64,000 nucleotides of DNA, taken from positions 1,860,001 through 1,924,000 of the forward strand of contig JAWMAR010000136.1 of assembly GCA_036785375.1 (NCBI GenBank), read 5' to 3'. Origin of the DNA: Leucoraja ocellata. Taxonomy: Eukaryota. This document shows positions 5,243 through 63,804 of this stretch, in pieces. The position numbers were made by a program, and so were the translations under genes. Under the pieces are notes generated by a model, which saw only the letters and a list, made by a program, of their open reading frames with translations, was not told the DNA's origin and searched no databases. Position 1 is the stretch's first letter. Every line of letters starts with the position of its first letter.

Positions 5243-5365
5243 AAGACACAAAGTGCTGGAGTAACACAGCGGGTCGGACAGAATCTCTGGAAAACATGGA
5301 TAGGTGACGTTTCAGGTCACAACCCAAAATGTCACCCAGCCATTTTCTCCTGAGATATTGCCTAA
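5243..5365. mobile_element. PLE-derived repeat, inverted arms
   Basis: Family body with head-to-head arms around ggtgacgtttc...aaatgtcacc. Confidence 0.6.
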
Positions 5366-7625
5366 CACGATTAATTACCGCAACAGTCATAGAATATTGA
5401 ACAGTACAGACAGGAACAGTTCGTTCAACCAACCATTATGGCAATCCAACTGATCCCATCTACGGTATATGCATACTGTCTGTATTCCTCTATTCCCTGC
5501 CTGTTCGTGTATTTGTCTGAATGGCTCTTAGATAATGCTATCATATCTGCTTTTATCACCTCTCCAGGTAGTGTGTACAGGCATCTACCACTCTCTGTGT
5601 AAAAAAATGTTGCCTCACAAAACAGACATGTAAAGAAGAATAGCATGCCTTAGTGATCAGGCCAATTTCCTAACCTACACAATTTCACCCGAAAATGATA
5701 GCTCATGCAAACTACCCTTGGTTATGCATGATTTTATGTATGATTTGCTCACGAAAAATGGGCAAGAGGGAACCTATTTCAAACAGTACTTTGTAAACCT
5801 ATTTATGATACCTGCACAAAAATGTCTCTGATGTCCCATTTCTGTCACAGTCATACAGCATGGAAACAGGCACTTCGGCCCAACTTGTCCATGCCAACCA
5901 AGATGCCCTACCTAAACTCATCCCATTCGCCTACATTTGCCTCATATCCCTCTAAACCTTTCCTATCCCAATTATTGTCACAATTGATGTCACAATTATT
6001 GATTAAGCAAAAATCAAGATTTGTAAAACTAATTCCAAAATCAAAGTATAATTTCTCTCAAAGTATTTATTTGCATATGTGTTAATTAGTTGTGGTGGAA
6101 TTACTTCTGGTGTGGATAATGTGAAATTAAATAATTAGCACTATTAAATCGGTGAGATTGCAGGTCCTTTGCTTTGTGTTCTGTCTTGCACTTCAAGTCT
6201 GCTCTGCAAATAATCTAAGGCAGCACCAAGCCAAGTGCAGATGACTCATAACAATCTCCCACAGTCATAGTCAACATACGTTGATTTGAATTTGTTCTGA
6301 CACCATTTGGACACTTGATTTAATTCATGGTTAAAACAAACACCAACTAAAGCCTCTATTCAGCACGAGCAGCAAATAAATAACAGAGACCAAAATTTGA
6401 ATGAAGTAATCCTTTCTGCTCTTCTGTTTTAAATTGTACTTCCTTGTCACATCTGTAGAACTGCATCAAAGGCAAGTATATTTCTGCAAGCAACCGAATC
6501 CATTGCAGAAATGAAGTAAAATCATAGACTTTGTGTATTGGGAGTGGGGAACTGCTTCAAAGAGGGCAATTCACTATCAGCCAGACAAGAGTCATACAGC
6601 ATGAAAACAGGTTGGTCGGGCCAACTTGCCCACACCCACAAGAGGACCAAAGACGGACGGTATATACCAGCATCTGCAGTTCCTTTCTGCACGAAGAAAG
6701 ATTGTGCTGGAAATACCCAGCAGGTTAAACTGCAGCTCTGGACAGAAAAAAAAGAGTTAAATATTTCAGGTCAATGACCCTTGATAGTGTTTTCTCTCCA
6801 CAGATGCGGAATATTACAGTGCATTGCATCTTTAATTTTAGTTCCAACAACTGCAGAGCTTTGATTTTCAGTTAATTCCCAAAACTTTGGGCAGACTTAA
6901 TATTCCAGTGATATAACATGCTGAAACTCCATTTCCTAGCTCATGTCAGTGTTTCCACAAGCAGAACGGTAATGCAACAATCGATTTGCTCAAATGATAT
7001 TCAAAACGGAGGTGACGATGAAATACAATGAGTCAATGCCTACAAAATACATCTGATGCATATCTCTACATTCTAAAAATCACTTCTCCACCTTCAGGGT
7101 GATGACTGAGAAAGAAAACCACAAGAACTGCCTGGCTGAGAGAGTTGAGGACCAAACAATGTAGTTTACAGCTAGAGATGTATTTTATTTTACATGGTCA
7201 TTGTTGTAGAGTCGTGGAATGATAGAGCAAGGAAGCGGGACCTGTGGCCCAACAAGTCCGCGCTGAACATCAACTGTGCATTGATATTAATCCTACATTT
7301 ATCCCATTTTACTTCCACTAGATTCTACCACTCCCCAACACATTAGGGGCAATTAACGACCTATGCGACTTTGGGTGGAGGGGGGAAACTGGAGCACTGT
7401 AGGAATTCCACATGGGCACAAGCGAACGTGTTGCTCAATGCAGACATACATTGTTGGAATTCCTCTGAATTACACCATTGAGATAAAGACCAGATAATAT
7501 TTCACCTTCCATGCTTTCAATTAAGGATAGAATGGCTCTTCTTCAAAATAATAGGGAGACAGGGGTCATGTTGTAATATTTCATCTGAAAGATAACTATA
7601 ATACACCAAAGCATTTTTGGAGCTT

Positions 7626-7778
7626 GCAGCATCTCTGAATAGAAGGAATGGGTGACAGGGTCACTCAAAACAGTCACCCATTCCTTCACTCCAGAGATGC
7701 TGCTTGTCCCACTGAGTTACTCCTGCATTCTATGTTTGTCTTCAGTGTAAACCAGCATCTGCAGTTCCTTCGTACACA
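7626..7778. mobile_element. Hairpin-form PLE-derived repeat
   Basis: GCAGCATCTCTGAATAGAAGGAATGGGTGAC...GTCACCCATTCCTTCACTCCAGAGATGCTGC inverted arms, followed by the family tail. Confidence 0.7.
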
Positions 7779-23900: not shown

Positions 23901-24845
23901 ACAATATCAATGCAAATTATGCAAAAATAAGCAAAGTTTGATCAATAGATGTGTTTGCAAAAATTGTTACTTAAAATGTCTGATTCTTTATTAACTTCCC
24001 CGCTCCAAACAGCATGTAGTTAGCTTCAAAATATCGCCAATGACAGCTTCAATCTTTTGTCACCAAATTGTTGATTTTACTTTGAACATACTGCACTGCA
24101 GGTGCTATTAATCTCAGTTTGCACAAACTTCATTTTCTTTAATGGAAAAACACAGATGAATGGTTAAATGAAACACTTACCTAAACAGGAATATCTCTCT
24201 ACATAAAATTGAATTGGATCCTTGCCAAAGATAAACAACATCTTTTTTTCTTGCATCCTGCACCCATTCCATCCTAAATCAATGCAACCTCTATTTTTCC
24301 ATGGGCTCCTGTAGCGGGAACTGCTATTATGGTTAAAATATGGGACAGGTCATGTTGGATACCTGCTGCTCTCTAGATGTAATGATGCTGGACTCCTGGA
24401 GTTGCAATACAAATCTTTACCAATGCCAGAATTTGATTCATATCTGTCAGATTTTACAAGTTCCTTTTCTCAACATGAGTTCGATATTTTTAAAGTGAAT
24501 AGTTTTTTAGGAAATAGTGTCCAGTAGACCATTAGAACAAGGTGGTATTAAAGGATGTCATGTTTTCTTTCACCTTTAGAAACTGCAGACCAAACTAAAT
24601 GAGATGACTTTTGGTTTAAACACAGGCTGCATTAATTTGGGCACGTTTCAGCTAAATTTGTGGTAACTCAAGAACACAAAACGAAATTCACACCTCATCA
24701 TGGATACCCAAGTGTTATCTGCATCAAACACTTTTATAAGTATCATCTCCATGCTGCTATTTGTACCAAGAGAATAATATCAGAAATGGCATAAATCCAT
24801 GTCCATGCTAGGATCTGGTTTTAAAAACTGTATTGAAAGACATAG

Positions 24846-24940
24846 GATAGACACAAAATGCTGGAGTAACTCAGCGACACAGGCAGCAAGTCTGGAGAGA
24901 AGGAATGGGTGACGTTTTGGGTCGAGGCTCTTCTTATCTT
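24846..24940 (-). mobile_element. PLE-derived short repeat
   Basis: Family body with degenerate core. Confidence 0.7.
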
Positions 24941-31339: not shown

Positions 31340-31471
31340 GTGTGTAAGAAGGAACTGCAGATGCTGGTTTAAACTGAAGATAGACACAAAAAGCTGGAGT
31401 AACTCAGCGGGACAGGCAGCATCTCTGGAGAGAAGGAATGGGTGTCGTTTCAGGTCGAGACCCTTCTTCTA
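31340..31471 (-). mobile_element. PLE-derived short repeat with ~14-bp TSD
   Basis: Family body, flanked by ATTAACACCAATGA (31326-31339) and ATTAACAGCAATGA (31472-31485). Confidence 0.75.
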
Positions 31472-40109: not shown

Positions 40110-40240
40110 GGTGTATGAAGGAATTGCAGATGCTGGTTTAAGCCAAAGACAGACACAAAAAGCTGGAGTAACTCAGCTGGACAATGCTGCATCTCTGGAG
40201 AGAAGAAATGGGTGACGGCACCCATTCCTTCTCTCCACAG
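40110..40240 (-). mobile_element. PLE-derived repeat with short inverted arm
   Basis: ggagagaagaaatgggtg-acgg-cacccattccttctctcc hairpin at the junction. Confidence 0.65.
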
Positions 40241-42215: not shown

Positions 42216-42770
42216 GAGCTATGCTTTTTCCACAAAGGTCCATAGTCAATTGCTACATCTAAATTTTTAATTCTCGGAGCAGAAAGCAAACTGCTGGTAG
42301 AACTTAATGGTTCAGATGACATTTGTGGAGAGAAATGACAGATGACATTTTAGATGACAGATGACAGGTCAGGACCGTTCTTGAGTTTTGAAGAAGGGTC
42401 CTGACCCAAAACATCATCTATAATTTCCCTTCATAGATACTGATAACCTGCTGAGCTTCTCCACCAGTTTGTTTTTTGCTTAATGTTCAAGTCTCTGCAG
42501 TGTCTTTCATCCCCATTTATAGTGCAAAGGGAAAAATTACAAAGCTTAGTCATTATTTAGCAGCAGAATCCTGAATGGTTTGTTCCTGCATAAGGATTAA
42601 TTTCTATGATGAGTCATGAAATATTAAGGGTATCACGATTGACATCAGGTCATAGGTGTGTAAGATCATAAGATTTCCATAACCTGATGCGAGTGTGTGT
42701 CTTTGTGCTTCAATATTGCTCAGGAGGATAATTCATCATATCCTGGCAAGAATCAATATTGTTACGAGGG

Positions 42771-42865
42771 GATAGACACAAAGTGCTGGAGGAACACAGC
42801 GGGTCAGGTAGCATCCCTGGAGAAAAGGAATAAGCGATGTTTCGTTGTTCGAGACCCTTCTGCAG
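42771..42865 (-). mobile_element. PLE-derived short repeat
   Basis: gatagacacaaagtgctggagg... family body. Confidence 0.6.
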
Positions 42866-45800
42866 AATTTTTAATGATGTAAGGACAGAAGTTCAATTAA
42901 AATCTAAATGACATGTTAGAAGTCAAACAAGTGGCCATCATTAAACACAATCTATTTTGAGATCTTGAGAATGTGGGGAGAATTAAATAGGATTTGTGTA
43001 GGATTGGTGTAAATGGGTGCTTGATGCCTGGCATGGACAATGGTTTGTAGAGCATGTTTCTACACCATATGACTCTAATTTACCATGTCGGTAAGTTGAA
43101 ACAAGTGATCTTGGAAGGTGTTGGGTGGAAAGTTCTGTCCTCCTGGGGTGATGAGCAATTAAAAGCAACAGCTTCCAAGCAGTTAGAAGAAGTGTCAGTG
43201 AAACACTTACTGTGCACAGCTTCCTGCTATGACCTTTTCAATGGAAATATTTCTGAAGAGTGGTGGACTGATCAAGTTCGAGAATAAAGGTGAAGTGAGA
43301 ACCAGTGACTGTGTTGAAGATCACCAAGTCAGGAAAACCTTGGGTTTGAAACATGTCAATCCAATTATGAGAAGCAATTTTGTGTATATATTCAGCCAAA
43401 AAAATGCATTTTAATTGATCAGCAATATTGCTGTTGACAGCTAACAAAATTAATTCCAAGCCTACTGAGCTTTGGTTCTTCAAACACCACAGGCACTGAA
43501 GCATGATTTTGTTCCTAATGCAGCCAAAGTCTGTAGCATACCTCATCAATTTTCCCACCTGCTCAGAACACGAGACACTTTCCATCACTCTCACTGCAGC
43601 CCACGGTGTTAAACATTAAATTTATATGAAAGACATCCTGAATGTTTGTATTTCAATCCTTAGTTCTCAGGATTTCGCTTGCTATCATTGCGTGGTCCAT
43701 TTTTTATACTGAATCGCACGCAGAAATAATTTCAATTTTCCTCCGCAGAATTTAACGGTAGAGCTGGCAGAAGGTTCATTCGTATCTCACTGAGATGCTC
43801 AAGCCAATATCACCAGCTGTGCTCTCACCTCAGTACTTCTTGCCACCCAGAGAATTATTTCAACGATAATTAATATTTAGACATGGTGATTTGGTGGGTT
43901 CATTTAGATCAACTTTAACTTTATATTTAAAAGTTTTATTCAACAAAAAAAAAACATTGACTCCATGCCTGCTGCCAGTATCTATGGCAGAGTGAATTCC
44001 AAGTACTTAGAAATAGGACAGAATTTCACAACAGAAAACTCAACTGCTGTACAAAATTACTCTGACAAAACCAGTTATCCTGTGATCTGAAAGCCCACTG
44101 TGCTAATTACCAAGGTCCAAATTAATTCCTGTGTGAGATAGGATTAAATGGCTGATGTATTTTCCAGCAACTATGACACTCCTAGCAACATGAAATTCCA
44201 TCCAGCGGATTTTTTCTACTAATCTAATTTGTGTGATTTAAAATGTCGTGGGGTTTTGGAGATTTCCGTGTCAAACATAATGAACTACTGGAGCATTGTA
44301 TGTCTGTGCGGGACATTATCTAAAGTAGACATCCACTTGGTAACCATTCTTTTGATAATCGCAGTATCACATCTGAACCCAATGCACTTTATTCAAATTC
44401 TCCTTGTCTACACAGAATCATAATCCTTCCTTATGCCCTCTACACCCCTTCTCTTTCTCTGCAAGTTAAAACTGGCTTGAATTCTATTTTTTCTCTGTTC
44501 TGATAAAGTCACTGATCTGAAATGTTAACTCTCTCTCTCCCAAGATGCTTCTTGACACACTAACGCAGAAATATTTTGGTTTTTTTTAATTTTTAATATT
44601 AATAGACTGTGATTAAAATCAACTCAATTAGGGCAATGTAATATTTACAAAATCATCAAAAATAACATGTGTAAATATTCAAAAGAATAATCATGGAAAT
44701 ATGAAGGGCTGATAATCGAGGGGATTAGTGGTTTATAATACAAGGCAGGAAATGATTAATGAGTGATTTAAATTAATTTTTCTACCAAGGACATAATAAT
44801 GGCAAAATAATTATTGACCAGGTGGTTTTATTCTCTTATTTTGTTGTCAATGTTTGACTGTTGTTTTGTATTGGGCCATGAAATACGAACCAAAAAAATG
44901 ACGTCACTTAAAACGATTGATCTACTGATAATATCCAGTAGATCTGCATTGAGCCATGTCCCCATCCAGTACTTACTACATGTGGCTAAATATAGCACCA
45001 TCCAATCTGTGTGTGGCTTGAGAATGAAAACCACGCCAGGCCACTTACATATAACTTGCTTTTCGCAAAGCAGGGAAAAAATACCAGCAAAGTAGAATTG
45101 AATGCTAAGGATTTTCTTTTCATTAACTTTCTTGCTCATTTTCATTCTACCTTTCTTTAAATAGCTGTCTTTGTTGGGCATTGTTCCAATCTTACCACAG
45201 ATTGCCATAGGGACAATTATTTATGTGTCAGCGTTACAGCTGATGTTAGTAGGAAAATCAAGTTTTTGTCTTCAGTCAAAGTGTATCCGCAGGCACTGTT
45301 AGGAAGGATTGCTGACTAATGTTCAGAACAGCAAACCTCAAGTTGAATTCTCCTCAAAAGGGTATTACGTTTCCCTGGGAAAAGGATATTAAGTGTGAGT
45401 CGTGAGTGCTGAAGGTGAAATCAGTTAACTCACTGCTAATGTAAAATGAATCTGGTTTCTACTTTGATTAAAAGGATTTGGTTATTCATGAGTGAAACTG
45501 TCCAGTCACTAATAAGGAGGAAGCAAAGACATGTGTGTGTGTCACATTGTAACAAGTCCTTTTCACGAACTGTAGTGAATCCTTTCTGGGAACATCACTA
45601 TCATTAAGCCTCAGATAGCATGATTTATCCCCATTATAACAAAATCTAAGATTTGCTAACATGCCTGCAAACCCAACAGTTCTAAGTGTGAAGTTACTTC
45701 TATGCTAAAAGTCAATAGAGCACTGCTGGTGTAATATAATGAGATCAAAGAATAAACAATATGCTCAGGGAGGTTCTGAATCGACCTTTGTCCACTGCTA

Positions 45801-46659: not shown

Positions 46660-46880
46660 CTTTTGTCGCCTTTTCTTCCATCTGCCAATCCCCACTAACC
46701 CCCTCCATTATCTGTACTCACCTATCACTTCCTAGGCTCTCCCCCAACCCACCTCTCATTTCCAACTTTCACCCCTCTACCCCATCAGTCTGAAGAGGGG
46801 TCCTGACCCGAAGTGCCATCTGTGCATTCCTTCCACAGAATGTGCCTGAACCACTGAGTTTCTCCAGCACATCGTTTGTT
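46660..46880 (+). mobile_element. Old PLE 3' end with degenerate hammerhead repeat
   Basis: Pyrimidine-rich stretch, then cagtCTGAAGAggggtcctgacccgaag. Confidence 0.55.
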
Positions 46881-49246
46881 TTTTTGGACCTTTAGATCTT
46901 AAGACATCATGACTATCTGATCATCATTATACTCTCTCACTTATCAATGAGTGCGGAGTGGGAATGATACATAATTGTTGAGCTAAAATAAACACTGAGC
47001 ATTATGAAGCTTAGTAAATGAAGGAACAATGCAATTGTAACTGCATCTTATGTTTCTGTCTTTAAGTATTATCTTAATAGATCTGGGTTGTCCATTTATT
47101 TGCATAATTATTCTATATTGATTAATATACAACATTCTATCCACCAGTGAACCTAACACAAGTTTATTTGTTCCTTTAACAAACTGAAGCATTTTTGGAC
47201 TTGCTGGTCAAAAGGTCAATACCCTCAGATTCAGAATGAAACAGGACAGTCCAATGGGGCATGTGTTGGACAATTCGTGCCAGCGGACATGCTGTGAAGT
47301 AGATTAACACGTCTAAATTAACGCAGAACAAAATTATTCCAGCCATCTGTTGTTGACAAACACAGGCTCAATATGCAAAAAGAATTTTATAGCCGGCCAT
47401 GTTCTCAAACTCAACATGGTTCATTGAAGCGACAAGTGGAAAATAAACTTTATGAATGAAAACAAATACATTGTTAATTTATTTGTGAAATGACCCAGTG
47501 TCATTGCACCATAGAATATGCCTTGTTATGAGGCACATTCTTGGGGATAAGGATCAGAAGATAAATTATGCCTCATGCCTTCTGCTATTATTGTAGATGT
47601 AGGTACGCTACATCTCCACCTGGGGTTATTTGTCAAGCATCATCTGCCATGCCCAATAGTTAATAAATAGAAGTAATCTGCAGATGAATCAAGAATGAAA
47701 ATTTGGCTGTTATACAAGTGACTTTAATAGAGGTCAGCGCAGACAAGCACGAACTGTGTGAGAAGAAAATAAATTAATATGTTTCAAAGTGGAAATTGCC
47801 TTGGGTGCTAATTTGAAAAATTGGATTTTGAAGTCTTAGCCACATAGTTTCGGTTTATGTGGAATTGTAATTGCATCTATAGGAGTCTCCACTTCTGGGT
47901 TTCGATTCTGGAGAATCACGTATCACAGAATATTGCCATTTCAGCCTTTAAAGAACAACTTATTTAAGATACTGACTTTTAAATTAATATAAGGTAATTC
48001 GTTTTCTAGTTCTTCAACTGGGTCAAGTTATTTATTGTTCTGTTTAGAATTAATGAAGAGTTCATGTTTGATGGACCAAATTAGCATTCCCATTTAAAAC
48101 ACTTTTGCCCACGGAGACATGTTTTCAAGAGGCTAATTTTCTGGTTTGGGGATGGAGAGGTTGTAACATTAAAAATCATTCTAATCATCTCCTCAATGGA
48201 TATTAAACTGAATCATAATCTAAGGACACAGAAGTTTTCTTGCAGTCAAGCTGGCTTGCATATGATTAATGTTCCCAATTGCAAATCAGTAAATTGCTTT
48301 GACAGCTTTCCAGATCTAATGACCTAGTTGTAAAATGCCTGTGTGGAATTGATTAAAAAGATCACAACATTTAAAAAAAAAGTGAGTCAATTATAAAGAA
48401 CAGCAAGAGGAAAGAAATGTATACAAACCCAATTCTGTATCACGTTTATATAAAGTCCCCCAAAAAATTATTCACAGCAACATAAATGGTTTCTATCATA
48501 ATTAAACATTTAAAAAAAAACATGATGCTGAACAAAAAATCCTGATGGATGCATTTACTTATCATTTCAAGACCATTTTCCATTTAATTGAGATCATATT
48601 CTGACACCGTTTTCAGACAAAATAATTACTAAATCAATCAAGAGCAATACGTTTATATAAAATGTTCTTATACCATGGGAGAATAAAAAAAATGTCACAA
48701 TGGATTTCAATTCGTAAAACAAATTATCCTATAATGTAAAATATAATGTAATTCTGTTAAGCACACTATGTTTAAATCTTAGCTTCTTCACCTCTACAGG
48801 CACAGTTATAAGGCTTCAAAATGTAATGTTCATGGATAATGTATTCTTGTTAAAATGGAATCAATAATTTATGAAGTTATCCAACCCAAAACTAATGTGT
48901 TCAAGAATTAACGTGTTCATTCCAATGAAAAATCAGGTCATGAAATATATTCAGGAATGTTCCCATAGGTACCAAGTCTATTTTGTTGAAAAGTTATTAC
49001 AAGTCCAGCCAGAACGTTGGGAGTGAAATAATGTAGATGAATGGTCTCTCAGTTCCATTTATGTACGTGGGAGGGGGGGGAAATTGGAGATGGTCGGTAA
49101 TTGGGATAAATTAGTAACGTTAATGACCATCTCCAAATGGACTTTAGTGTGCAGCTCTAGTGTGGTGTAAACCTTTGTTCCTGGCAAAAATTAGTAAAAA
49201 GGTTAAAATATCCAAGCGATTACCAATTCCTACTTCAGGTACCTAC

Positions 49247-51525: not shown

Positions 51526-51830
51526 TAGTGTAGTTTAGAGATACAGCCCAGAAACAGGCCCTTCGGGTCCGCGCCAAACAGCGACCCCCACACATGAACA
51601 CCATCCAACACATACTAAGGACACTTTTTGCATTTACAAGCCAATTTACCTATATACCTGTACGTCTTTGGAGCGTGGGAGGAAACCGAAGATCACGGAG
51701 TAAACCCATGCAGGTCACGGGGCGAGAACGTACAAACTCCGTACAGACAGCACCCGTAGTTGGGATCGAACCCGGGTTTCCGACGCTGCAAACACTGTAA
51801 AGCAGCAACTCTACCGCTGCACCACCGTAC
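51526..51830 (-). mobile_element. tRNA-derived V-SINE (HE1-like)
   Basis: Near full-length copy with A/B-box head and CR1-like tail. Confidence 0.85.
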
Positions 51831-52090: not shown

Positions 52091-52879
52091 TGAATATATG
52101 TTCCGCAATACCAGGTGAACAACACTCTTCTATGATTAGTGGAATTTTACACATTTGTATATGAGCCCTATTGGTCTAATCTGTTGACATTTTACAGAAT
52201 GGTTCAGTGGTGAATTGAAGGGTGACCTACAAGCTGTCTGTGGCTGGAATCAACCACAGCTCAAGTCAATGAATTCAAGAGAAAATACAAAGATGGGAAT
52301 ATTAAAGAGCAGCAATAAAACAATAAGGTGTGTTGTTCGAGTTTTCTGTCACAAATGGGTGAATTATTGCCATTAAAACAGAAATGTTTTGAAACATTCA
52401 ATAGGGAGAATATGTGCAAAGGCAAACAGCGTTAATGGTTCTCAACTTCAGAGGTTTGTGGCATTGGAAACATTAAATGTATTCAAGGCTTAGATAGAGT
52501 TTTAGACTTGAGGCTTATGGAAGTCAGGTTGGAAAAAGACAAAGGTGAAAAATCAGAACAATAGTGATCATACTTAATGCTAGGAGTCTCTGGTCTATAA
52601 CAGTTGCTGTTTCTTATTATCTGTAATATTAACCAGCCTGAAAATTCTGCATTCAAAGAACACTTCTTAAACAACAAGATAGAGTCAAATGATGAACACA
52701 TTTCTTATGGGATTTGTTTATGTTTGCTCAGCCGGGTTCACTTCACTGGCCCAAATCTACACATACATACATGGCAGGAACTGAATTTAATTGCTTTCCA
52801 ACAGAATATGGTTCATTTATTAGCATTTATGAGATGTAAAGTTCATTTTAATGCACCAACAAATCACCTGCATGTGATA

Positions 52880-53070
52880 TAGACACAAAAAAGCTGGAGT
52901 AACTCAGCAGGTCATACAGCATCTCTGGAGAAAAGGAAAAGGTGATGTTTCAGGTCAAGGCCCTTCTTCTGAACGGCACCTATTCCTTCTCTCCAGAGAT
53001 GCTGCCCGTCCCACTGAGATACTCCAGCTCTTTGTGTCTATCTTCGGTTTAAACCAGCATCTGCTATACC
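52880..53070. mobile_element. Hairpin-form PLE-derived repeat
   Basis: tagacacaaaaaagctggagt...actccagctctttgtgtcta inverted arms around a degenerate core. Confidence 0.7.
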
Positions 53071-53374: not shown

Positions 53375-53470
53375 ATTCATTCCTTCTCTCCAGAGATGCT
53401 GCCTGTCCCGCTGTGTTACTCCAGCTTTTTGTGTCTATCTTCAGTTTAAACCAGCATCTGCAGTTCCTAC
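53375..53470 (+). mobile_element. PLE-derived short repeat (3' part)
   Basis: cattccttctctccagagatgctgcctgtcccgctgtgttactccagc family body. Confidence 0.7.
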
Positions 53471-53559: not shown

Positions 53560-53660
53560 TAGTCTGAAGAAGGGTTCTGACCCGAAACGTCACCCATGCA
53601 TTTTCTCCACAGATGCTGTCTGACACGCTGAATTACTCCTGCACTTTGTGTCTATCTTTA
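53560..53660 (+). mobile_element. Short PLE-derived repeat with intact minimal hammerhead core
   Basis: agtCTGAAGAagggttctgacccGAAACGTCacc followed by the family body ...agatgctg...ctgaattactcc. Confidence 0.75.
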
Positions 53661-53855
53661 GACAACAACAGAATTTGGTTACAAGTGAAATACAAGCAGA
53701 AATTATGTGTTGTAGGCAGAATAGACAAGTTATGATTGTTGAGATCCAGGCAGAATCCTTCAGCCCATTGACTAACAGAATGATCTCAGGGTGTGAGTCT
53801 ACAGTTTCTTGAAATGTAAGTAGATATAGTAGTAACTAGTAAAGAAGATGTACTG

Positions 53856-54012
53856 GATAGACACAAAATGTTGGAGTAACTCAGCAGGATAGGCAGCATC
53901 TCTGGAGAGGAATGGGTGACTTTACGGGTCGAGACCCTTCTTCAGACTGATTACTCCAGCATTTTGTGTCTTTCTTCAATTTAAAACAGCATCTGCAGTT
54001 CTTTCCTACACA
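53856..54012. mobile_element. PLE-derived repeat, minus copy with inverted tail
   Basis: Family body with mutated core (GTAAAGTC), followed by an oppositely oriented tail. Confidence 0.7.
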
Positions 54013-54084
54013 GATGTACAGCATACTTGGCTTGACCGGTGAGGTTGCTCAGTATAAAAGTCAGAAAATCTGGTTGCACCTGTA

Positions 54085-54415
54085 TTAAAAAAAACATTGT
54101 TTAGGCTACATTGAGTGCAGTTCTGGTCACCCCATAACAATGATGTTGAGGCTTTGGAGAGGATGCAGAAGATGTTCACCAGGATGTTGCCTGGATAAGA
54201 GAGTTTCAGGTATAAAGATCGTTTGAACAAACCTGGATGGTTTCTCTAGAGTGTGAGATGCTGAGGGGGACATGAGTGAAGTATATAAAGTTATGAGAGG
54301 TAGAGGGTGGGTAGACTTTTTCCCAGTGTGGAAATATCAATTGCTTGAGGGCATGGCTTGAAGATGAGAGGGAGAGAGTTAAAAGGAGATTGACGAGGCA
54401 AGTTTTCACATCCCT
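54085..54415 (+). mobile_element. CR1 LINE fragment
   Basis: cagttctggtcaccc...ggagaggatgcagaagatgttcaccaggatgttgcctgga CR1 signature. Confidence 0.8.
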
Positions 54416-55034
54416 TTTCACAGGTGCTAGCTGACCTGCTGACTGATTTTAACAGCTTGTGCCTTTATTTTAGATTTCCAATGTCAGCAGTTTTGAGTGG
54501 CATTTTATCTGCATAACAAACTTACTTCCGATGTAATCAGAACCAAAAACACTAAGTCACTCTCACTTAACTTCTCCTGAGTCTGCACACTTGGTTCTTA
54601 GATGCCATTTTGCTGTCATCTTGACTGGGTCTCCTTGAAAGAGGCCAGTCAACTCAATGAGTTTATGATGGCTCTTCATACAGCAATCCTCTCAGCCCCA
54701 TTCCCTTACACTTTCCCCACAGCCCTGCAAATGATTCCCTCTTACTTATCTCTCTTCATTTCCCTTTTGACCTCTTCCCATCATTCTTCCAGATCATGGG
54801 TGCTGGATCATAACTGTATAAAATGTTTTCCTTCACATGTTGGATGGGGACAAGGTGGTAAAGAAGGAATCCAAACAGTGGGAATACAAACAAGAGATGC
54901 TGCCTGACCTGTTGAGTTACTCCAGCACTTTGTATCCTTGTTTGTAAACCAGCATCTGCAATTTCTTGTTTCTGTATTTGATACTACATGGCTAGCATTG
55001 ATCCCATTGGAAATCCCGAATATAAATTAGCAGT

Positions 55035-55335
55035 TAAGGAGTAGAATTAAGCAATTAGGCCCATTGAGCCTATTCCACCATTCAATCATGGCTGATCTCT
55101 GCCTCCTAATCCCATTTTCTTGCCTTCTCCCCATAACCCTTGACACCCGTTCTAATCAAGAATTTGTCTATCTCTGCCTTAAAAATATCCACTGACTTGG
55201 CCTCCACAGCGCTCTGTGGTAATGAGTTCCACAGATTAACTATCCCCTGACTAAAGAGGTTCCTCCTCACCTCCTTTCTAAAAGAGTGCCCTTTAATTCT
55301 GAGGCTATGACCTCTGGTCCTAGACTCTCCCACCC
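55035..55335 (-). mobile_element. CR1 LINE 3' fragment
   Basis: ORF ESRTRGHSLRIKG..FSQGIVNLWNSLPQ..FKAEIDKFL. Confidence 0.88.
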
Positions 55336-55947
55336 ATGGTCCGAGGCTCTCCCACCAATCCTTTCCACATTCACTCTATCTATGCCTTTCATTATTCATC
55401 TGAAGATTCAGATTTGTTTTGTTTTTAAATTGTCATATACACTAAGGTACAATGAAATTCTGGTTTCACATGAAGCTCTGAGAGTAACGAGTTTACATGG
55501 TAATGATAAATGTAACAATAAATACAATGAAGTGCACAAAACAGCAGGTGGTGCAAAGATAGCAGTGCAATCTGAAGTCGTTTATAAAGAAATTGCAATA
55601 ACTGAATAAACAAATGATGTAATTTTAAGACTCAGAGTATGTGGCAGAGAAGTCCCTGACAAAGAGCAATCCAACCAAAACCTCAACGGTGGAACAAGCG
55701 GAGGACGATGGCTGACCTAAGTGGAGCGTCACAACGGCTGGGAAGACGGATGAAGGCTGCAGCAGTAAAGGGTCTCTGGTTGTCTTGGACTCCATGTCAC
55801 TGGATCCTGACCCAGATCTGTCAAGGATCTGGCTGTCTGTGCACCAGTCTCCCTATGCTAAACAAAGTCATGCACATGATCAGCCACGACCGCAGGGGGC
55901 CTTAGGTAATACCTATTCACACAGCTCTGATTACCTTTTAATCTACG

Positions 55948-56169
55948 GTAGACAAAAAGCTAGAGGAACTCAGCAGGTGAGGCAGCATCAAAGAATGGGT
56001 GATGTTTTGGGTCAGAGACGCATCTTCAGACTGATGTGGGAGTGGGGGACGGGAAGAAGAAAGGAAGAGGCGGAGACAGTAGGCTGTGGGAGAGCTGGGA
56101 AGGGGAGGGGAAGGAGGGAGAAAGCAAGGACTACCTGAAAAATTGGAGGTCAATGTTCATACCGCTGGG
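55948..56169 (-). mobile_element. 3' fragment of a related Penelope-like element
   Basis: The reverse complement starts with CCCAGCGGTATGAACATTGAC (PSGMNID, compare PGGMNIE at the end of the 57750 ORF), then a pyrimidine-rich UTR and a degenerate hammerhead repeat. Confidence 0.8.
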
Positions 56170-56589
56170 TATTGAAAAATGTTTTATTCTTAAAATAAAA
56201 AGAGTTGTTTTGAAGTTTGAATGCAAGTTTATATTGTACTTAATGGGAAGAGATTAGTGTTCAGATTTTATATTAAAACCCAACCCAATCATGACCAATT
56301 CAGCACAAGACTAGGACTTAAACCGATTTGACTATTGCATTAAATAAACACCAAATGGTAAGCTCATGGTTAGAAGGAGTGATAGTTTTTGGCCCAAAAT
56401 CGTGTATATTCTTTTGTGATATGTTACCACCTGGTGCTTAAATATTACAGAGTAGATGGGCACCATTTGACCCATGGAATCTGTCCCATTCTTCCTCTCC
56501 TAACTTCAGGAAGCGGTGTACTCACCCTGGCTGTATCAATAGTGTTGAAGTGGAGATAGTCAAGAGTTTTAATATCACCTGACTTTGTT

Positions 56590-57350
56590 CTGGACTAATC
56601 ACGTTGAAGCTACACCAGTGCCTTTACTTCCTCAGAAGACTAAGGAAGTTTAGCATGACTCTGACAACTCATACCAATTTATTCAGATGCACTGTAGAAA
56701 GTATCCTTTCAGAATGCATCACAGCTTAGTTTGACGACAAGACGCCAAAAAATTGCAGAGAGTTGTGGACGCAGACCCTTGGTCCCAATATTAACCCCAT
56801 CTACACTTCACACTGCCATGAGAATGCAGTCAACATAATCACAAACCTTTTCACATTGGTCATTCCCTCCTCTCCCCCCTCCCATCAGACAGAAGATGCA
56901 AAAGCTTGATAATGCCAGATTCAGGAACAGCTTCTTCCCCGACTGAATTCTCCTCCCATAAGCTGGGGAGTACGACCCATCTTCTGACCGTTGCAATTTT
57001 CTTTGTAATTGTAATGCTATATCGTTGTAACACCATATTCTGCACTCTTGTAATATTTGCCTTTGCACTATCTGTTGTGTTCATATATGGCTTTGTATTT
57101 GTCATATATGATTATAGTTATGTACAGTATGATCATTCCGGTCAGCATGCAAACAAACTTTTCACTACATCTTATTGCATATCTTCTTCTTGCATATGGA
57201 GTGCACAGCCAAAAATTGCAGGACAACTTGTTCTATTTGATCTTATTTGATTGTGCATGCCAGGTTGATTGCATTCACTGAAACAGGGCAGACCACGTGA
57301 ATGTTGCAATCTCCCACCCCTTAGTGCACATGACAATAATAAACCAACAC
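56590..57350 (+). mobile_element. Degenerate Rex1/Babar- or L2-type LINE 3' fragment
   Basis: Residual QCLYFLRRLRKFSM..RCTVESILS..CIT and gattcaggaacagcttcttccc; ends in catgacaataataaacc. Confidence 0.65.
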
Positions 57351-57749
57351 CTATAACATCCACGCAAGTTATTCTCTATAATATGCTCATGAACTCACCT
57401 TTCATTCTTTTCATCGCTCACCAAAGCTAATGGGCATATTTAAATTCTGTCGCCAATTAGCGTGACTTTGGACATATGTGGAAGCCGGAACATCTGGTGG
57501 AAAACCATGCAGTCACCGGGAAAATGTATAAACTGCACACGGATAGTATCCAAGATCAGGACAGACCTCAGATTCCCGAAGATGGCAGGCAACAATACTA
57601 GTTACATTAGACTTTAGAGATACAGCACGGAAACAGGCCCTTCGGCCACCCGAGCCCGAACCGACCAGTGATCATCCCATACACTAGAACCCTACACACT
57701 AGGGACAATTTACAATTTACGGAAGCCAATTAATCTACAAACCTGCAAC

Positions 57750-59024
57750 CTATACCCAGCCACTGACACTCTCCTCCGCCTAGCGGAGCTGGTCCTTACC
57801 CTCAATAACTTCACGTTCGACTCCTCCCATTTCCTCCAAATACAAGGCGTAGCTATGGGCACACGCATGGGCCCCAGCTATGCCTGCCTATTTGTAGGTT
57901 ACGTCGAGCAATCCTTGTTCAATACATACCAGGGCCCCATCCCCGACCTCTACCTCCGTTACATTGACGACTGCTTTGGTGCCACCTCCTGCACCCGCAC
58001 ACAACTGACTGACTTCATCCACTACACCACTAACTTCCATCCGGCACTCAAATACACCTGGACCATTTCCGACACTTCCCTACCATTCCTTGACCTCACT
58101 ATCTCCATTGCAGGTGATAGACATCTGACCGACATACACTATAAACCCACTGACTCCCATGGCTATCTGGACTACACTTCTTCCCACCCTGCTTCCTGTA
58201 AGGACTCCATCCCCTACTCCCAATTCCTCCGTCTACGCTGCATCTGCTCCACGGATGAGGCGTTCCACACCAGGACATCTGAAATGTCCTCATTATTCAG
58301 GGAACGGGGGTTCCCCTCCTCCACCATAAATGAGGCTCGCACAAGGGTCTCTTCCATACCCCGCAACACTGCTCTCTCTCCCCATCCCCCCACTCGCAAC
58401 AAGGGCCGAGTCCCCCTAGTCCTCACCTTTCACCCCACCAGCCATCACATACAAAAAGTAATCCTCCGTCAGTTTCGCCACCTCCAACGTGACCCCACCA
58501 CTCGCCACATCTTCCCATCTCCCCCCATATCTGCCTTCCGCAAAGACCGCTCCCTCCATAACTCCCTTGTCAATTCTTCCCTTCCCTCTCGTACCACCCC
58601 CTCCCTGGGCACTTTCCCTTGCAACCGCAAGAGATGCAACACTTGTCCCTTTACCTCCCCCCTCGACTCCGTTCAAGGACCCAAGCAATCGTTCCAGGTG
58701 CGACAGAGGTTTACCTGCATCTCTTCCAACCTCATCTATTGCGTCCGCTGCTCTAGATGTCAGCAGATCTATATCGGTGAGACCAAGCGGAGGTTGGGCG
58801 ATCGTTTCGCCGAACACCTCCGCTCGGTCCGCAATAACCAAGCTGACCTCCCGGTGGCTCAGCACTTCAACTCCCCCTCCCACTCCATCTCCGACCTCTC
58901 TGTCCTGGGTCTCCTCCATGGCCACAGCAAGCAGCACCGGAAATTGGAGGAACAGCACCTCATATTCCGTTTGGGGAGTCTGCATCCCGGGGGCATGAAC
59001 ATCGAATTCTCCCAATTTTGTTAG
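57750..59024 (+). CDS. Penelope-like reverse transcriptase/GIY-YIG endonuclease ORF (N-terminally truncated)
   Basis: The frame is open upstream of the ATG at 57855 (LYPATDTLLRLAELVLTLNNFTFDSSHFLQIQGVAMG). Motifs are GxAMG, YLRYIDD, LPFLD, YKPTD, a CxxxxCxxC linker and LIYCVRC..IYIGETKRRLGDRFAEH. There are no internal stops. Confidence 0.92.
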   Translation, partial: LYPATDTLLRLAELVLTLNNFTFDSSHFLQIQGVAMGTRMGPSYACLFVGYVEQSLFNTYQGPIPDLYLRYIDDCFGATSCTRTQLTDFIHYTTNFHPALKYTWTISDTSLPFLDLTISIAGDRHLTDIHYKPTDSHGYLDYTSSHPASCKDSIPYSQFLRLRCICSTDEAFHTRTSEMSSLFRERGFPSSTINEARTRVSSIPRNTALSPHPPTRNKGRVPLVLTFHPTSHHIQKVILRQFRHLQRDPTTRHIFPSPPISAFRKDRSLHNSLVNSSLPSRTTPSLGTFPCNRKRCNTCPFTSPLDSVQGPKQSFQVRQRFTCISSNLIYCVRCSRCQQIYIGETKRRLGDRFAEHLRSVRNNQADLPVAQHFNSPSHSISDLSVLGLLHGHSKQHRKLEEQHLIFRLGSLHPGGMNIEFSQFC

Positions 59025-59136
59025 TCCTTGCTGTCTCCTCCCCTTCCTCAGTCCCCCTGCTGTCTCCTCCCATCCCCCAGCCTTTGGGCTCCTCCTCCTT
59101 TTTCCTTTCTTGTCCCCGCCCACCCCCGCCCCCGAT

Positions 59137-59172
59137 CAGTCTGAAGAAGGGTTTCGGCCCGAAACGTTGCCT
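59137..59172 (+). ncRNA. Minimal type I hammerhead ribozyme core in the PLE 3' repeat
   Basis: CTGAAGA (59141-47), GGG..CCC stem II, then GAAAC-GTT with a loopless palindromic stem III, as described for PLE hammerheads. Confidence 0.7.
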
Positions 59173-60423
59173 ATTTCCTTCGCTCCATAGATGCTGCTGC
59201 ACCCGCTGAGTTTCTCCAGCTTTTTTGTGTAATCTACAAACCTGCATGTCTTTGGAGTGTGAATAGAAGCTGGAGCACCTGGAGAAAACCCATGCAGTCA
59301 CAGGAAGAATGTACAAACTCTGTACAGACAGCACACGTGGCCAGGATCTAATCTGGGTCTCTGGCACTGTAAGGCAGCACCTCTACCACTGCGCCAACCC
59401 AAACCCTAATGTACAATCAGATCATATATCCAAGAAGATACAACATTCTCCAGACAAATGTTTGAATTTATTTATTTGCCTTTTACTTCAAAAGTGGACG
59501 GAGGGTCAAATTGGATTTCGAGATTCAAGGCGACCACCTTATTGAATCAACTATTTAAAAAAATTAGAGATTTTGATAAAAATCAGCTTTGATTCTCTCA
59601 ATTTGTAGTTAAAGTTCTTCCAATATAGCACTATTGAAAATATAGCAATGATTATGTGACTGTACTGGTTGCTGTAATCACATTCAGAACATTTTAATGA
59701 ATGCGCTTCTTCAATAAATGTCATGAAGTGATAATAGAAGGGTCATATCTGTAGGGATTTAACAGAAAAGCTGCAAATTAGTCATCTGAATTATTTCTGA
59801 TTCTAAAGTGTGATTCTGATTTCATTCTATTGTTAAGTATGAGCTCCACACAAAGCATTCCTTTATTCAAGTTGGGAACACAGGTTGCAAAGCAGGCGTG
59901 GGGTTTGTAGAACACTGTAGTGTGAAATATTTTAGGAAAAAAAATCATGGAACAACTTACTGCAAATTGCAATCTGGTGGGCAAAAGCAAATCAAGTGAA
60001 ATAATTTAGGCCAAGAGGTTTCAACCTGATCACTGGGCTAACGCTGGGGTTCAGCCACTTATCTCTGTGTGAGACTCAATTCCAAGTGCTGATCAGTCTG
60101 GAGAAAGCAGAGGCACCTTCTGCTTTGGTGCCATGCCAGCATTCACCTGGAGTACCTTTGGGAATTTCTACAGGCTTCCCAGCTCTCAAGCTAAGGTGGC
60201 TCATAAAAGATGGAAGGGTTTCGACATGCCTATCCATGTTCTCCAGAGAGTCTGCTTGATGGCTCCAGAACTTTGTGTCCTTTTATGGCACCTAAAATGT
60301 GGCGACTCTTGTATACTGACTCAGTGTGGTCAATTATCTTACACTCTTATACTTCGTAGGATTGCCATTGAACTGAATGTAGAAAATAATGTAACTGTAC
60401 TTAGGTACACATGACAATAAAGT

Positions 60424-60708
60424 AGAACCAAGGAGCTGCAGATGCTGGTTTACACAAATGGACATAATGTGGTGGAATAACTCAACTGGTCAGGCAGCAT
60501 CTTTGGAGAATATGGATAGGTGACATTTCACCTTGGGGCCCTTCTTCAGACTTAGGATTCAAGTCGACCAGTTTATTGAAACAATTATTTAAAAATTGAG
60601 AGATTTTGATAAAGGGTGAAGGGTCCCAACCTGAAACACCACCTATCCATGTTCTCCAGAGATGGTACCTGACCCGCTGAGTTACTCCAGCAATCTGTGT
60701 CCTCATGA
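60424..60708. mobile_element. Inverted pair of PLE-derived repeats, flanked by an 11-bp duplication
   Basis: Minus copy at ~60428-60550 and plus copy at ~60616-60702. GACAATAAAGT occurs at 60413-60423 and 60709-60719. Confidence 0.65.
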
Positions 60709-62999
60709 GACAATAAAGTGCAATTGAACCATTGAAAAGAAGTTGGCTGAGTCTCCATCAATTAAATCTCATGGATTATAATGAATGAGAGATTTTGCAG
60801 CTTGAGAAAAGGAAGAGATATTGTTTTACTTATTTAAGTAATATCAATTTAATTATTATGCAATTACTAATATAATCTATGTGTTAATACATTGATTTTA
60901 TTTGATTATCTAGTTTCAATACCACAGTGATTTTGTTTCAAATACAAGCCAGACCAGGTAAGATTAGGAGATTTCCTTTCCTGAAGATAAGACCATGAGA
61001 CGTATGAGCAGAATTGGGCCATTCAGCCCATCAAGTCTACGCCAACGTGGCTAACCTGCGTTTCCCTCTCAACCGCATTCTCCTGCCTTCCACCGTAAAC
61101 TTTGACACCTCAGCATCACTATTCTACACAAATATCCCTTGGTTTTCTCAATACCCAAACATCAGCGAACCCTTGTCTCAAATTTACTCAGTGACTGAGC
61201 CTTAATGTCCTGCGTGAGTAGAAAATGTCAAAGATTTATCATCTCTGGATAAAACATTTTCTTTTCATTTTTGGCCTGAGCGGCTAATGCCTAATCTTGC
61301 TGCGACCTCTGGAACTAGACAGCCCGGCTCGGAGAAGCATTAACTTTACATTGACCCTGCCAAGCCCTATAAGGATTCCTTGCATTTCCAATAAGAACAC
61401 CCATCATTCTGCGAAAATCAGAAGAGTAAATTCCATGACTACTTAATCTCCCCCTTATTACAAACTAACCTAGAATTGCAGGAATTAATACAATCATTCT
61501 TTGGACACTCCTATAATCACCGATATCCATGCTGAGGGAGGGAGAACTAACCTGTATTCTGGATGTGAGCCTGAGATAATCGAAACATGATGAATTAAAA
61601 CATTTCGCAATAAGTTAGTCTGCACCTCAATTGCAAACTGCACCTTCTCAGATCCTTTGAAACTCCAATACCTTTTAATCTCTCACCATTTCTATTGTTA
61701 TACCATGTGAATGATTTTCTATTTTTCCATATTATATTCTATTAGCCTTGTCCTCATCCATACAACTAGCATTCTCTTGAAACCTCTCTGGACCCCTGAC
61801 TTACCCATGGTCCTTGTGCACTTTGCAGATTGCATTCAAGAATATAAAATCTATCATGTAGCACAATACCTTGGAAGATGTAATAAATGTAAAAAGGTGA
61901 CGTGCCCAAGAGGGTTCCATAGTGAGCAATGGATTCATGACCAGAGCTAGTGTGTGTAGATATGTTAGATATCTGGTGGCTAAATTAGATGGAAGAAGTT
62001 AGCCTACTTTCCATCCACATAGTGCACTGATGTTTCAGTTTAAATTGCCTGCTCATCTCTATTGTGGTGGAGGGAATTGTCTTTAACTCTAAGATACAAA
62101 TGCCACTATAGATTTATGATTGACATTTTGGACATATATCAATTTCTTCCAATGAAATATTTCAAAATCTTGCTTTAACCTACAGTAATACTATTTAGTA
62201 GTTACTGGATAAAATTCAGATTCTGTTTGAGAATCTGGATTTCTTTATCTCCTGAGAGATATTGATGATTCCTACACAAACATTTGTTTTAAAAAGTATG
62301 ACAAAATAATATTTTTTCAAAAAGACAAAACTACTTATTATTATTGATCCTTTTGGCTAAATGACAATTTAGTCTGGGCAATAATAGAAAAGCTCTAAAT
62401 CAATAATTCATTTCACAATCAGCTCATCAAACAATCTTCACATATCAAACATTGTCATCTGTGCTAGAAATGTTGAATTGTTACGGACAGTGTGTTTAAA
62501 TCTGAATTAACAATGCCCTTGCAGAAAACAAAGTCCAAATAAGGTCAGACAAATCATAAACTGAAATGATTCAGGCTCATTTTGGTTGCTCACTCTGGCT
62601 TTTATCAAAGCAAATATTCTTGAGTAGCACCTTAAAATTGTAATAATAATGATTAGTGTGGTCTGTATGACTTTGTATTGACATTTTACTGACAGACTAA
62701 CATCAAAGATTAGCTCTCACAATCCGAAGCTCAAATGAAGACAGCAGTAACAGCACATTATTGTTATTCCCATCAATAATTCAAATGGTCCATTAGATTT
62801 GTGTCCATAGGTTGTCACAGAGTTTAAAGGGAAGCAAAATGTTCATCAAAAGCAAATTACACCGAGTCTGTTACTCATTCGGGGAATTTAACCCCAGAGC
62901 CATCAGTGGGGTTTTCAGCAATGATTTCAGCAATCTTACAAAAATAACCTAACTGTTGTGATCAGATTATTAATGTTTCAACCCAGAACCACAAAAGAA

Positions 63000-63090
63000 G
63001 TCTAAAGAAGGGTCTTGACCCGAAACGTCATCCATTCCTTCTCTCCAGAGATTCTGCCTGTCTGCTGAGTTACTCCAGCATTTTGTGTCT
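63000..63090 (+). mobile_element. 91-bp PLE-derived repeat with 13-bp TSD
   Basis: AACCACAAAAGAA at 62987-62999 and 63091-63103. The core is CTAAAGA (mutated)...GAAACGTC. Confidence 0.8.
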
Positions 63091-63804
63091 AACCACAAAA
63101 GAAAACCTTGAAGAATAGCATATCTATGGATCTTCTGCTAACAGTAATCATGAGAAGCTCCCAGGACACATACATGGACTTTTTCCTTGTTTATTTTTTT
63201 AGATATACACTCAAGTGAAAATCCAGCAAGCATTAAGTGCACAAACCCTATTGTTGTTGGTGGACCAGGTCACAGTTTTAATTTAACACTTAGAAATGAG
63301 GAATTTAGATGTGAGAGGAGGGAAGAACAGGTACAAATTTTGATAAGGCATTACCAAAAGTAAATCATTAACATTGTGACTTGTTTCAAGTGATAGACAG
63401 AATCAATATTAATATTGTGACATATCACCATCACTTTAAAGGTTTATTTAATCACTGAGTTACACACCACACTCTTAGTTAATAAAATATCCGGGCCTAC
63501 AAGTTTGATGGATCCTGCAAATGTTCAGGCAGAAGGTAGAGTGCACATTGCACATGGCTGTTGCTGAGTATTCAGTATCGAGGCTTCAGCTAATGGTCAT
63601 GCCGTCCCCTGATTACAATCACTCAGGTACGGTGTCTGTGTTATTCATTAGCTGCACATCTTTGGATGGGAGGAGAGTGCTTATAAAAGGTCCATGAGGG
63701 CAATTATAAGGAGGCATTCACATTCCAGTTGCAAGATAAGTGGTCGGAGCAATGTAATCTTTTTTGGGACATTCAGTCAATCTGTCAGATGCTGCTTTCA
63801 TAAG

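What the first reader, a model, noticed from the sequence alone, without database searches (positions are those of the whole stretch)
53560..63103. Family of short hammerhead-ribozyme-bearing mobile repeats, with a likely autonomous Penelope partner in the same window
Seen: about 15 copies of a 90-150-bp repeat are spread across the window. The family core is CTGAAGA-A-GGGT..ACCC-GAAAC-GTC, intact at 53564-53591 and, in a related form, at 59141-59168 in the 3' end of the RT/GIY-YIG element. Several copies have their own long TSDs (13 bp at 63000, ~14 bp at 31340). Established: Penelope-like elements carry minimal type I hammerheads with a palindromic loopless stem III, thought to cleave as dimers. 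Inference: these copies are either extreme 5' truncations of PLEs or a non-autonomous, retrozyme-like family mobilised by the PLE protein. Many carry an extra tail (..aaaccagcatctgcagttcc..acaca) absent from the long element here, and plus-strand copies start just upstream of the core. Stem I is only ~2 bp, so catalytic activity is unproven.
Basis: partly seen in the sequence, partly recalled or inferred. Interest (0 to 1): 0.72.

Follow-up and report, generated by a model that had tools for sequence, protein, structure and literature searches.

The report
Penelope retrotransposon head stubs with hammerhead
These short repeats are end-pieces of Penelope-like jumping genes carrying an already known minimal hammerhead motif; many begin at one fixed base just before that motif, likely because the copying enzyme ran off the end of a short RNA, and they are likely dead rather than a self-spreading family.

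Summary
The repeats are real: 26 segments in about 20 insertions, several with target-site duplications; the hammerhead core is intact at 53564 and 59141 only. They are heads of Penelope-like elements (PLEs). The 'extra tail' is the known optional PLE tail and sits on long copies as often as on short ones. The element at 57748-59230 lacks the first 796 of 1221 residues and belongs to a younger subfamily (A) than most short copies (B), so it is not their autonomous partner; intact A elements exist elsewhere. There is no discrete non-autonomous family, but no smooth truncation continuum either: 5' ends pile up 30 nt before the cleavage site (4,025 genome matches against 399-857 at control positions), with no peak at the cleavage site. 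Elsewhere the family forms duplication-flanked mini-tandems whose passes reuse one 5' end and one 3' end, which points to short linear RNA templates, run-off and end-to-end jumping. Ribozyme activity is untested. This scan noted the fixed start and such mini-tandems before on other DNA.

The parts
57748..59230 (+). 5'-truncated PLE of the young subfamily A (about 1.48 kb of a 3,946-nt unit): C-terminal RT half, Cys linker, GIY-YIG endonuclease (ORF ends 59024), pyrimidine-rich 3' UTR, hammerhead head, no tail; inserted in another dispersed repeat
   Evidence: 96% identical to the intact unit in L327, starts at residue 797 of 1221; GIY-YIG E=0.0036
57731..57747 (+). left copy of the 17-bp target-site duplication of the truncated PLE (right copy 59230-59246)
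59139..59170 (+). minimal type I hammerhead, subfamily A (core 59141-59168; predicted cut after 59168; 2-bp stem I)
53561..53660 (+). solo B-type head starting at -31/-30, core intact at 53564-53591, no tail
53854..54015 (.). head-to-head insertion: minus arm (53854-53951) running to about -30, plus arm with tail; short (8-10 bp) TSD, within chance range
54893..54966 (+). short decayed copy starting at about +17, with tail
55949..56170 (-). longer decayed copy that runs through the hammerhead into the 3' UTR (to about -159)
60213..60295 (+). weak, decayed head
   Evidence: E=1.5e-6
60431..60553 (-). decayed head starting at about -31, stem II broken, with tail
60618..60713 (+). decayed head starting at about -23
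63000..63092 (+). solo B-type head starting exactly at -30, core mutated (G5 to A), no tail; 13-bp TSD at 62987-62999 and 63091-63103 abuts the first base
31341..31470 (-). solo B-type head starting at -26, with tail; 14-bp TSD with one mismatch (31326-31339, 31472-31485)
40111..40240 (.). head-to-head insertion joined near the cleavage site, tail on one arm, 13-bp TSD (40095-40107, 40237-40249)
52879..53065 (.). head-to-head insertion, tail on one arm
53375..53470 (+). short copy starting at about +4, with tail
7623..7778 (.). head-to-head insertion, tail on one arm
5236..5379 (.). decayed head-to-head insertion
6660..6782 (.). highly decayed copy or copies
24845..24935 (-). solo head starting at about -25
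42285..42501 (.). old, decayed head-to-head insertion
42770..42868 (-). solo head starting at about -29
46750..46889 (+). decayed copy running past the hammerhead into the 3' UTR (to about -62)

Best explanation
The short repeats are terminal heads of endonuclease-bearing Penelope-like elements, and each was likely written directly from the autonomous element's RNA when reverse transcriptase started at one of two internal sites and ran off the 5' end of a short linear RNA. Positions are given relative to the predicted ribozyme cut (0). Shown: copies end at about +66 or +103 (without or with tail); 5' ends peak at -30, the first base of hammerhead stem I, with a second peak at -26 to -17; there is no peak at the cut; short and long copies share one head. 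Inferred: the templates are uncleaved RNAs of about 200-450 nt that end at +158 to +271; on reaching the 5' end the enzyme integrates (solo head), pairs with a second arm (head-to-head insertion) or jumps to the RNA's 3' end and goes round again (mini-tandem). Inferred from the Anolis PLE: the protein-binding site lies downstream of the start sites, so solo heads lack it and would be dead on arrival. Why -30: transcription start (about 50%), a 5' exonuclease stopped by the folded or protein-bound hammerhead (about 35%), or a splice acceptor or other block (about 15%).
For: Intact 1221-residue ORF in a 3,946-nt tandem unit (RVT_1 E=1.6e-6). Subfamily A sample chosen by a 3' anchor only: of 68 non-duplicate copies, 25 of the 44 that reach -27 stop within -33..-27; 5 stop in the next 117 nt. 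Subfamily B: 27 of 66 at -36..-27, and 4 run to -197 or beyond, 2 far into a GIY-YIG ORF. Genome-wide exact counts of homology ends: -35: 399; -31: 2,461; -30: 4,025; -29: 1,578; 0: 857; +4: 674. Tail on 16 of 50 short and 5 of 16 long A copies, 18 of 54 and 4 of 8 B copies. Same majority 96-nt head in 13 of 20 short and 15 of 16 long A copies. Of 82 loci holding the post-tail region, 51 are jump chains; 50 of 51 jump to +158..+271; none passes its own 5' point; 8 stop on it (+-1) against 0.81 expected for a closed circle; 22 of 30 checked have a TSD of 9 bp or more. Junctions are mostly blunt: 13 of 39 exact, 7 with 1-nt overlap, 6 with 1 extra base. G precedes the -30 end in 44 of 100 listed matches against about 30 expected (hand count; test). 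Internal initiation at the tail edges, need for the first 172 nt of the ORF, and use of uncleaved RNA are reported for the Anolis PLE (PMC11167929).
Against: All mechanism is read from DNA; no RNA end was observed (reads from related organisms, no place where many molecules begin or end). The count patterns are not perfectly matched: the -35 pattern is narrower in subfamily than the -30 one, and 6 of 20 loci from the position-0 pattern were internal variants, not ends. Five of the 8 same-end chains lie at -26..-31, where ends are common anyway; only 3 lie at rare positions. Matching junctions in both arms of inverted copies could come from DNA fold-back rather than from one RNA. Jump chains are a minority (364 matches of the post-tail motif against 11,925 of the head), so they may not stand for all templates. 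43 of the 96 nt compared between short and long copies were identical by selection. Part of the G excess comes from element-derived letters. No intact B-type ORF was looked for.
Confidence: 0.72

Rival explanations
1. Ordinary premature 5' truncation on long RNA, with a roadblock at -30 (for example factors bound to the pyrimidine tract and AG just upstream, which look like a 3' splice site).
For: A minority of copies do form a continuum up to -1701. In D. virilis Penelope the intron's 3' end maps to the 5' end of helix I (PMC4209133), and a pyrimidine tract plus AG precedes the core in the subfamilies seen.
Against: No shared upstream exon or intron-less junction among 30 loci ending at -30. 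A fixed roadblock does not explain arrays that reuse locus-specific ends at -7, -56, -60, -75, -77 or -158. No such joint is among the 15 listed of 87.
Confidence: 0.13
2. A discrete non-autonomous, retrozyme- or SINE-like family with its own master copy, mobilised in trans.
For: Very high copy number, TSDs, a preferred length; PLE-derived non-autonomous retrozymes are proposed for vertebrates (bioRxiv 10.64898/2026.07.22.740005).
Against: Short copies carry the same head and tail frequency as ORF-bearing copies in both subfamilies; 5' ends scatter around the peak; no junction pair is shared by unrelated loci among 39 mapped; solo heads lack the region past +103 that every jump chain includes.
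Confidence: 0.08
3. The templates are hammerhead-cut linear RNAs or ribozyme-made circles, and the short copies and arrays are their rolling-circle products.
For: Core and stems are kept across subfamilies, with U-G to U-A changes in stems I and II; arrays of 2-4 identical units exist; circles were proposed for PLEs (PMC4209133).
Against: No excess of ends at the cut (857 against 674 at +4); only 2 of 51 array junctions start at 0/+1; passes stop exactly at the junction ten times more often than a closed circle predicts. The predicted hammerhead fold is 6-7 kcal/mol worse than a rival fold. Unit-length circles leave no junction and are not excluded for long tandem copies.
Confidence: 0.07

Closest known systems
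Minimal hammerheads in pLTRs of metazoan PLEs (Cervera and De la Pena 2014, PMC4209133; parts 1-2 of 4 read)
   Same: Type I core, extra base between positions 9 and 10.1, G10.1-C11.1, palindromic loopless stem III, mostly solo copies spread through the genome; a 2-bp helix I is reported for D. virilis.
   Different: Stem II is only 4 bp here; activity untested; a fixed 5' start at the base of stem I is not described in the parts read.
Canonical C-terminal-endonuclease PLEs of the Neptune/Nematis type (Craig et al. 2021, PMC8557442; passages)
   Same: RT then CX2-5CxxC linker then GIY-YIG with internal cysteines; 5' truncation, partial tandems, inverted copy, 30-40-bp tail on one end.
   Different: Here most copies are only the head; clade was not fixed by a tree.
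Poseidon element of Anolis, PAc (Frangieh et al. 2024, PMC11167929; parts 1-2 of 4 read)
   Same: Two internal RT starts that bound the tail, in AC-rich sequence; no RNA ends at the ribozyme cut; dependence on sequence downstream of the start.
   Different: Different clade; the ORF here starts at +135, after the tail, not inside the hammerhead; run-off and end-to-end jumping are not reported in the parts read.
Metazoan non-LTR retrozymes (Cervera and De la Pena 2020, PMC7229834, passages; Li et al. 2026 bioRxiv 10.64898/2026.07.22.740005, parts 1-3 of 5)
   Same: The mini-tandems found elsewhere in this genome are 2-4 head-to-tail units of about 190-340 nt, most with a hammerhead each, derived from a PLE end.
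   Different: Window copies are solo or head-to-head; hammerheads are minimal, not canonical; each array has a private junction and sits in one TSD, so it appears made at insertion, whereas Li et al. invoke later local amplification; no circular RNA shown.

Membership tests
Endonuclease-bearing PLE | Single ORF with RT and C-terminal GIY-YIG | tested here: met
   1221 aa in L327; RVT_1 E=1.6e-6 and GIY-YIG E=0.013, both just under Pfam's cut-offs
Endonuclease-bearing PLE | Partial tandems, inverted 5' copy, optional 30-40-bp tail on one end, variable TSD | tested here: met
Neptune/Nematis type | CX2-5CxxC linker before GIY-YIG and cysteines inside it | tested here: met
   seen in the translations; definition
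Neptune clade | Placement in an RT tree | not tested
   no reference PLE proteins were fetched
Autonomous partner in the window | Complete ORF and upstream pLTR | tested here: not met
   starts at residue 797 of 1221, after the first catalytic RT motif at residue 770
Minimal type I hammerhead | Conserved core, stem II, palindromic stem III | tested here: met
   intact in 2 window copies; stem II pairs form in 96-97% of 251 heads
Minimal type I hammerhead | Helix I of 4-5 bp | tested here: not met
   2 bp only; 2 bp is reported for D. virilis
Minimal type I hammerhead | Self-cleavage as dimer or with protein | not testable with these tools
   needs in vitro assay; no genomic excess of ends at the cut
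Non-LTR retrozyme | Head-to-tail tandem units each with a hammerhead | tested here: not met
   not in the window; met by a few loci elsewhere, e.g. L262, L329, L330
Non-LTR retrozyme | A shared unit amplified to many loci | tested here: not met
   no junction pair shared by unrelated loci among 39 mapped, from 82 loci drawn from 364 matches
Non-LTR retrozyme | Expressed as circular RNA | not testable with these tools
   no RNase R or small-RNA data for this organism
Discrete non-autonomous PLE derivative | Diagnostic sequence of its own | tested here: not met
   same majority head in short and long A copies; B tested only by shared anchor and tail

The most novel reading that the evidence does not exclude
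The genome records the PLE cycle at base resolution: the enzyme works mostly on short, uncut linear head RNAs whose 5' end sits at the foot of the hammerhead, and by jumping from one end of such an RNA to the other it writes hammerhead tandem arrays in a single insertion. That would be the birth step of animal non-LTR retrozymes, without any RNA circle or ribozyme cut, and the same jumping would explain pseudo-LTRs and partial tandems.
Probability: 0.4. Interest if true: 0.7.

Novelty: new member of a known kind. Interest (0 to 1): 0.42.

Why it matters
As an object it is ordinary: PLE ends with minimal hammerheads are published. Its value is as a very large natural record of how PLEs copy themselves, which is still unsettled. 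The fixed start at the hammerhead's foot, the lack of ends at the cut, the lower limit of about +158 for template 3' ends and the one-step mini-tandems give concrete predictions for an in vitro system that already exists for the Anolis element, and a testable route from PLEs to retrozymes.

Tried and rejected
Rfam scan: no hammerhead family among 9 weak matches; it does not see this minimal form. PDB sequence search with the intact protein: 0 matches. Monomer folding of 4 window copies: no better than shuffles (z 0.65 to -0.88), and the hammerhead fold is not the best fold. Sequencing runs: no listed holder is on record as RNA; three raw RNA runs of related organisms and one contig set were laid: deep cover of the head with unlike flanks, as expected from passengers in host transcripts, loose ends at the same borders, no RNA start or end called; not evidence on expression of the element. 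A direct test for splicing into the AG before the core remains open. Tail as marker of a separate family: rejected. Hammerhead-cut templates: no support. Closed small circles: rejected for the chains that stop on their own junction. A G-quadruplex block in the C-rich tract of subfamily A was considered and dropped because subfamily B lacks that tract yet has the same peak. Lunse et al. (dimer cleavage of PLE hammerheads) was not held; I saw only its title in a reference list. No supplements were read; Fig. S2 of PMC11167929 and the alignments of PMC4209133 may bear on whether the fixed start is already visible in print.
Full report
Observation. The window is G000:C136:1860001-1924000 of a 3.44-Gb assembly. 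That it is a skate- or ray-like fish is my recall of the repeats and the wording of earlier AI notes, not a tool result. A profile made from the heads of 10 ORF-bearing loci finds 26 segments in the window and none in 5 shuffles; they form about 20 insertions. The hammerhead core is intact at 53564-53591 and 59141-59168; the copy at 63000 has a core mutation and that at 60549 a broken stem II. Five or six insertions are head-to-head pairs.

The long element. 57748-59230 is flanked by a 17-bp TSD and sits inside another dispersed repeat. It is 96% identical to an intact tandem unit of 3,946 nt with a 1221-residue ORF at L327, but starts at residue 797, after the first catalytic RT motif. It cannot be autonomous. 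Its subfamily (A) is young: 150 of 150 scored protein matches are 97-100% identical, and a 43-nt head anchor has 11,925 exact matches. Most short window copies are of older type B (4,160 exact matches of one anchor), which has its own copies joined to GIY-YIG ORFs. The protein has RT, a CX2-5CxxC linker and GIY-YIG, the Neptune/Nematis layout of PMC8557442 (passages); no tree was built.

The tail. The 'extra tail' is the 30-40-bp optional PLE tail (PMC8557442; PMC11167929). It is on 6 of 26 ORF-bearing A copies, 16 of 50 short and 5 of 16 long A copies, and 18 of 54 short and 4 of 8 long B copies. It does not mark a separate family.

The hammerhead. Among 251 heads from all fetched loci (A over-sampled), stem II pairs form in 96-97%, stem III is the loopless palindrome, and stem I has 2 bp; A and B differ by U-G against U-A at one pair in each of stems I and II. 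The extra base after position 9 matches the minimal hammerheads of PMC4209133 (parts 1-2). The predicted fold is 6-7 kcal/mol worse than a rival fold, and Rfam does not detect it. Activity is untested.

5' ends. Positions are relative to the predicted cut. I sampled the first genomic matches of a 3' anchor, which does not select on the 5' end. For A, 75 copies fell to 68 after dropping 7 flank duplicates (one more pair, L108/L114, seems to remain): 25 end at -33..-27, 16 at -26..-17, 3 at -1..+2, 5 in -150..-34 and 14 further up, to -1701. For B, 66 of 71 copies: 27 at -36..-27, 11 at -26..-17, 1 at the cut. Exact patterns that demand two non-element bases before a given position count, genome-wide: -35: 399; -31: 2,461; -30: 4,025; -29: 1,578; 0: 857; +4: 674. 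The patterns differ in subfamily breadth, and 6 of 20 position-0 loci were internal variants, so ratios are rough; the peak at -30, the first base of stem I, and the lack of a peak at the cut are clear. The window copy at 63000 starts exactly at -30 against its TSD. Short and long A copies share the same majority 96-nt head (13 of 20, 15 of 16; 43 nt identical by selection).

What the templates looked like. A motif just past the tail has 364 matches. I mapped 82 loci holding it. Fifty-one are short chains that begin at about +66 or +103, run upstream to a point z, jump to a point y and run again (L341 and L362 dropped as duplicates; L252, with a different stop at each pass, left out; the rest are long copies, fragments or unmapped). 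y is +158..+271 in 50 of 51, although the motif would allow it from +138; z ranges from -312 to +22 with 7 at -32..-26. Arrays repeat one junction 2-4 times (L262, L271, L329, L330), and 22 of 30 checked lie in one TSD. No pass goes beyond z, and 8 of 51 stop on it against 0.81 expected for a closed circle; 3 of the 8 are at rare positions. Junctions are mostly blunt. No junction recurs at unrelated loci, and only 2 of 51 start at the cut. The simplest reading is a linear RNA with free ends at z and y, copied by an enzyme that runs off or jumps end to end. This is inference from DNA.

How it most likely works. As shown in vitro for the Anolis PLE (PMC11167929, parts 1-2), reverse transcription starts inside the RNA at the tail edges, needs sequence downstream of the start and uses uncut RNA. 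On an RNA whose 5' end is near -30 the enzyme has only 95-135 nt to copy, giving the solo heads; these lack everything past +103 and would not be mobilised again. Why -30 is open. For a transcription start: the site fits the initiator consensus (recalled) and G precedes the end in 44 of 100 listed matches against about 30 (hand count), as cap copying would give, though some of these G are element-derived. For an exonuclease stop: both peaks lie at the 5' foot of a helix, and the other ends scatter like trimmed fragments. For a splice acceptor: the D. virilis intron ends at helix I, but no shared exon was seen in 30 loci. RNA reads of related organisms did not decide it.

Known and new. The association is published; the object is a new member of a known kind. 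I did not find the fixed start or one-step arrays in the papers read; searches were made, subscription papers and supplements unseen, and PMC3846280 (passages) mentions solo pLTRs and template jumps in another context. Li et al. 2026 (parts 1-3 of 5) derive retrozymes from PLE ends by later local amplification. Earlier agents of this scan noted the fixed start in this and other genomes and single mini-tandems in other genomes; I read those notes after measuring the peak and the chains, and they are not independent support.

Verdict. Real, ordinary in kind, first reading partly supported. Interest 0.42, carried by the mechanistic record rather than by the repeat itself.

Noticed in passing
L327 (G000:C8:5605000-5614900) and L328 (G000:C1:8665500-8675400): Head-to-tail arrays of full-length PLE units (3,946 and 3,985 nt) with open ORFs of over 1,200 codons that include a long, variable proline-rich repeat region between the N-terminal motif and RT.
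   Followed up: partly
L262, L271, L329, L330 (e.g. G000:C68:1252140-1252940): TSD-flanked arrays of 3-4 near-identical 202-299-nt units of the PLE head, each with a private junction; L330 keeps the whole core in every unit and is a natural construct for a dimer-cleavage test.
   Followed up: yes
L109, L111, L116, L121, L125, L143, L152, L154, L158, L165, L172, L174: In all 12 inverted pairs where both arms matched the anchor (two of them duplicates), exactly one arm carries the tail.
   Followed up: partly
window 59179-59230 and tail-bearing copies such as 31341-31470: An 8-bp helix pairs +18..+27 with the tail, and the two 3' ends (+66, +103) flank its 3' strand in AC-rich sequence, like the start sites of the Anolis element.
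   Followed up: partly
window 57591-57747 and 59247-59385, also 4007-4126, 10376-10603, 51520-51813: A dispersed repeat that hosts the truncated PLE; resembles a V-SINE of sharks and rays (recalled, not tested).
   Followed up: no
window 29997-30428 and 30751-31158 (minus strand): ORF fragments that look like C-terminal parts of CR1/L2-type LINE proteins (recalled; no Pfam match).
   Followed up: no
L008-L017, L026-L030: One B-type head with the same flanks occurs on many small contigs, so it is embedded in a larger repeated unit or satellite.
   Followed up: no
L252 (G000:C1:20884676-20887700): Four successive passes all restart at +198/+199 but stop at different points (-28, +16, +110, +143), a clear case of repeated jumping to one RNA 3' end.
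   Followed up: partly
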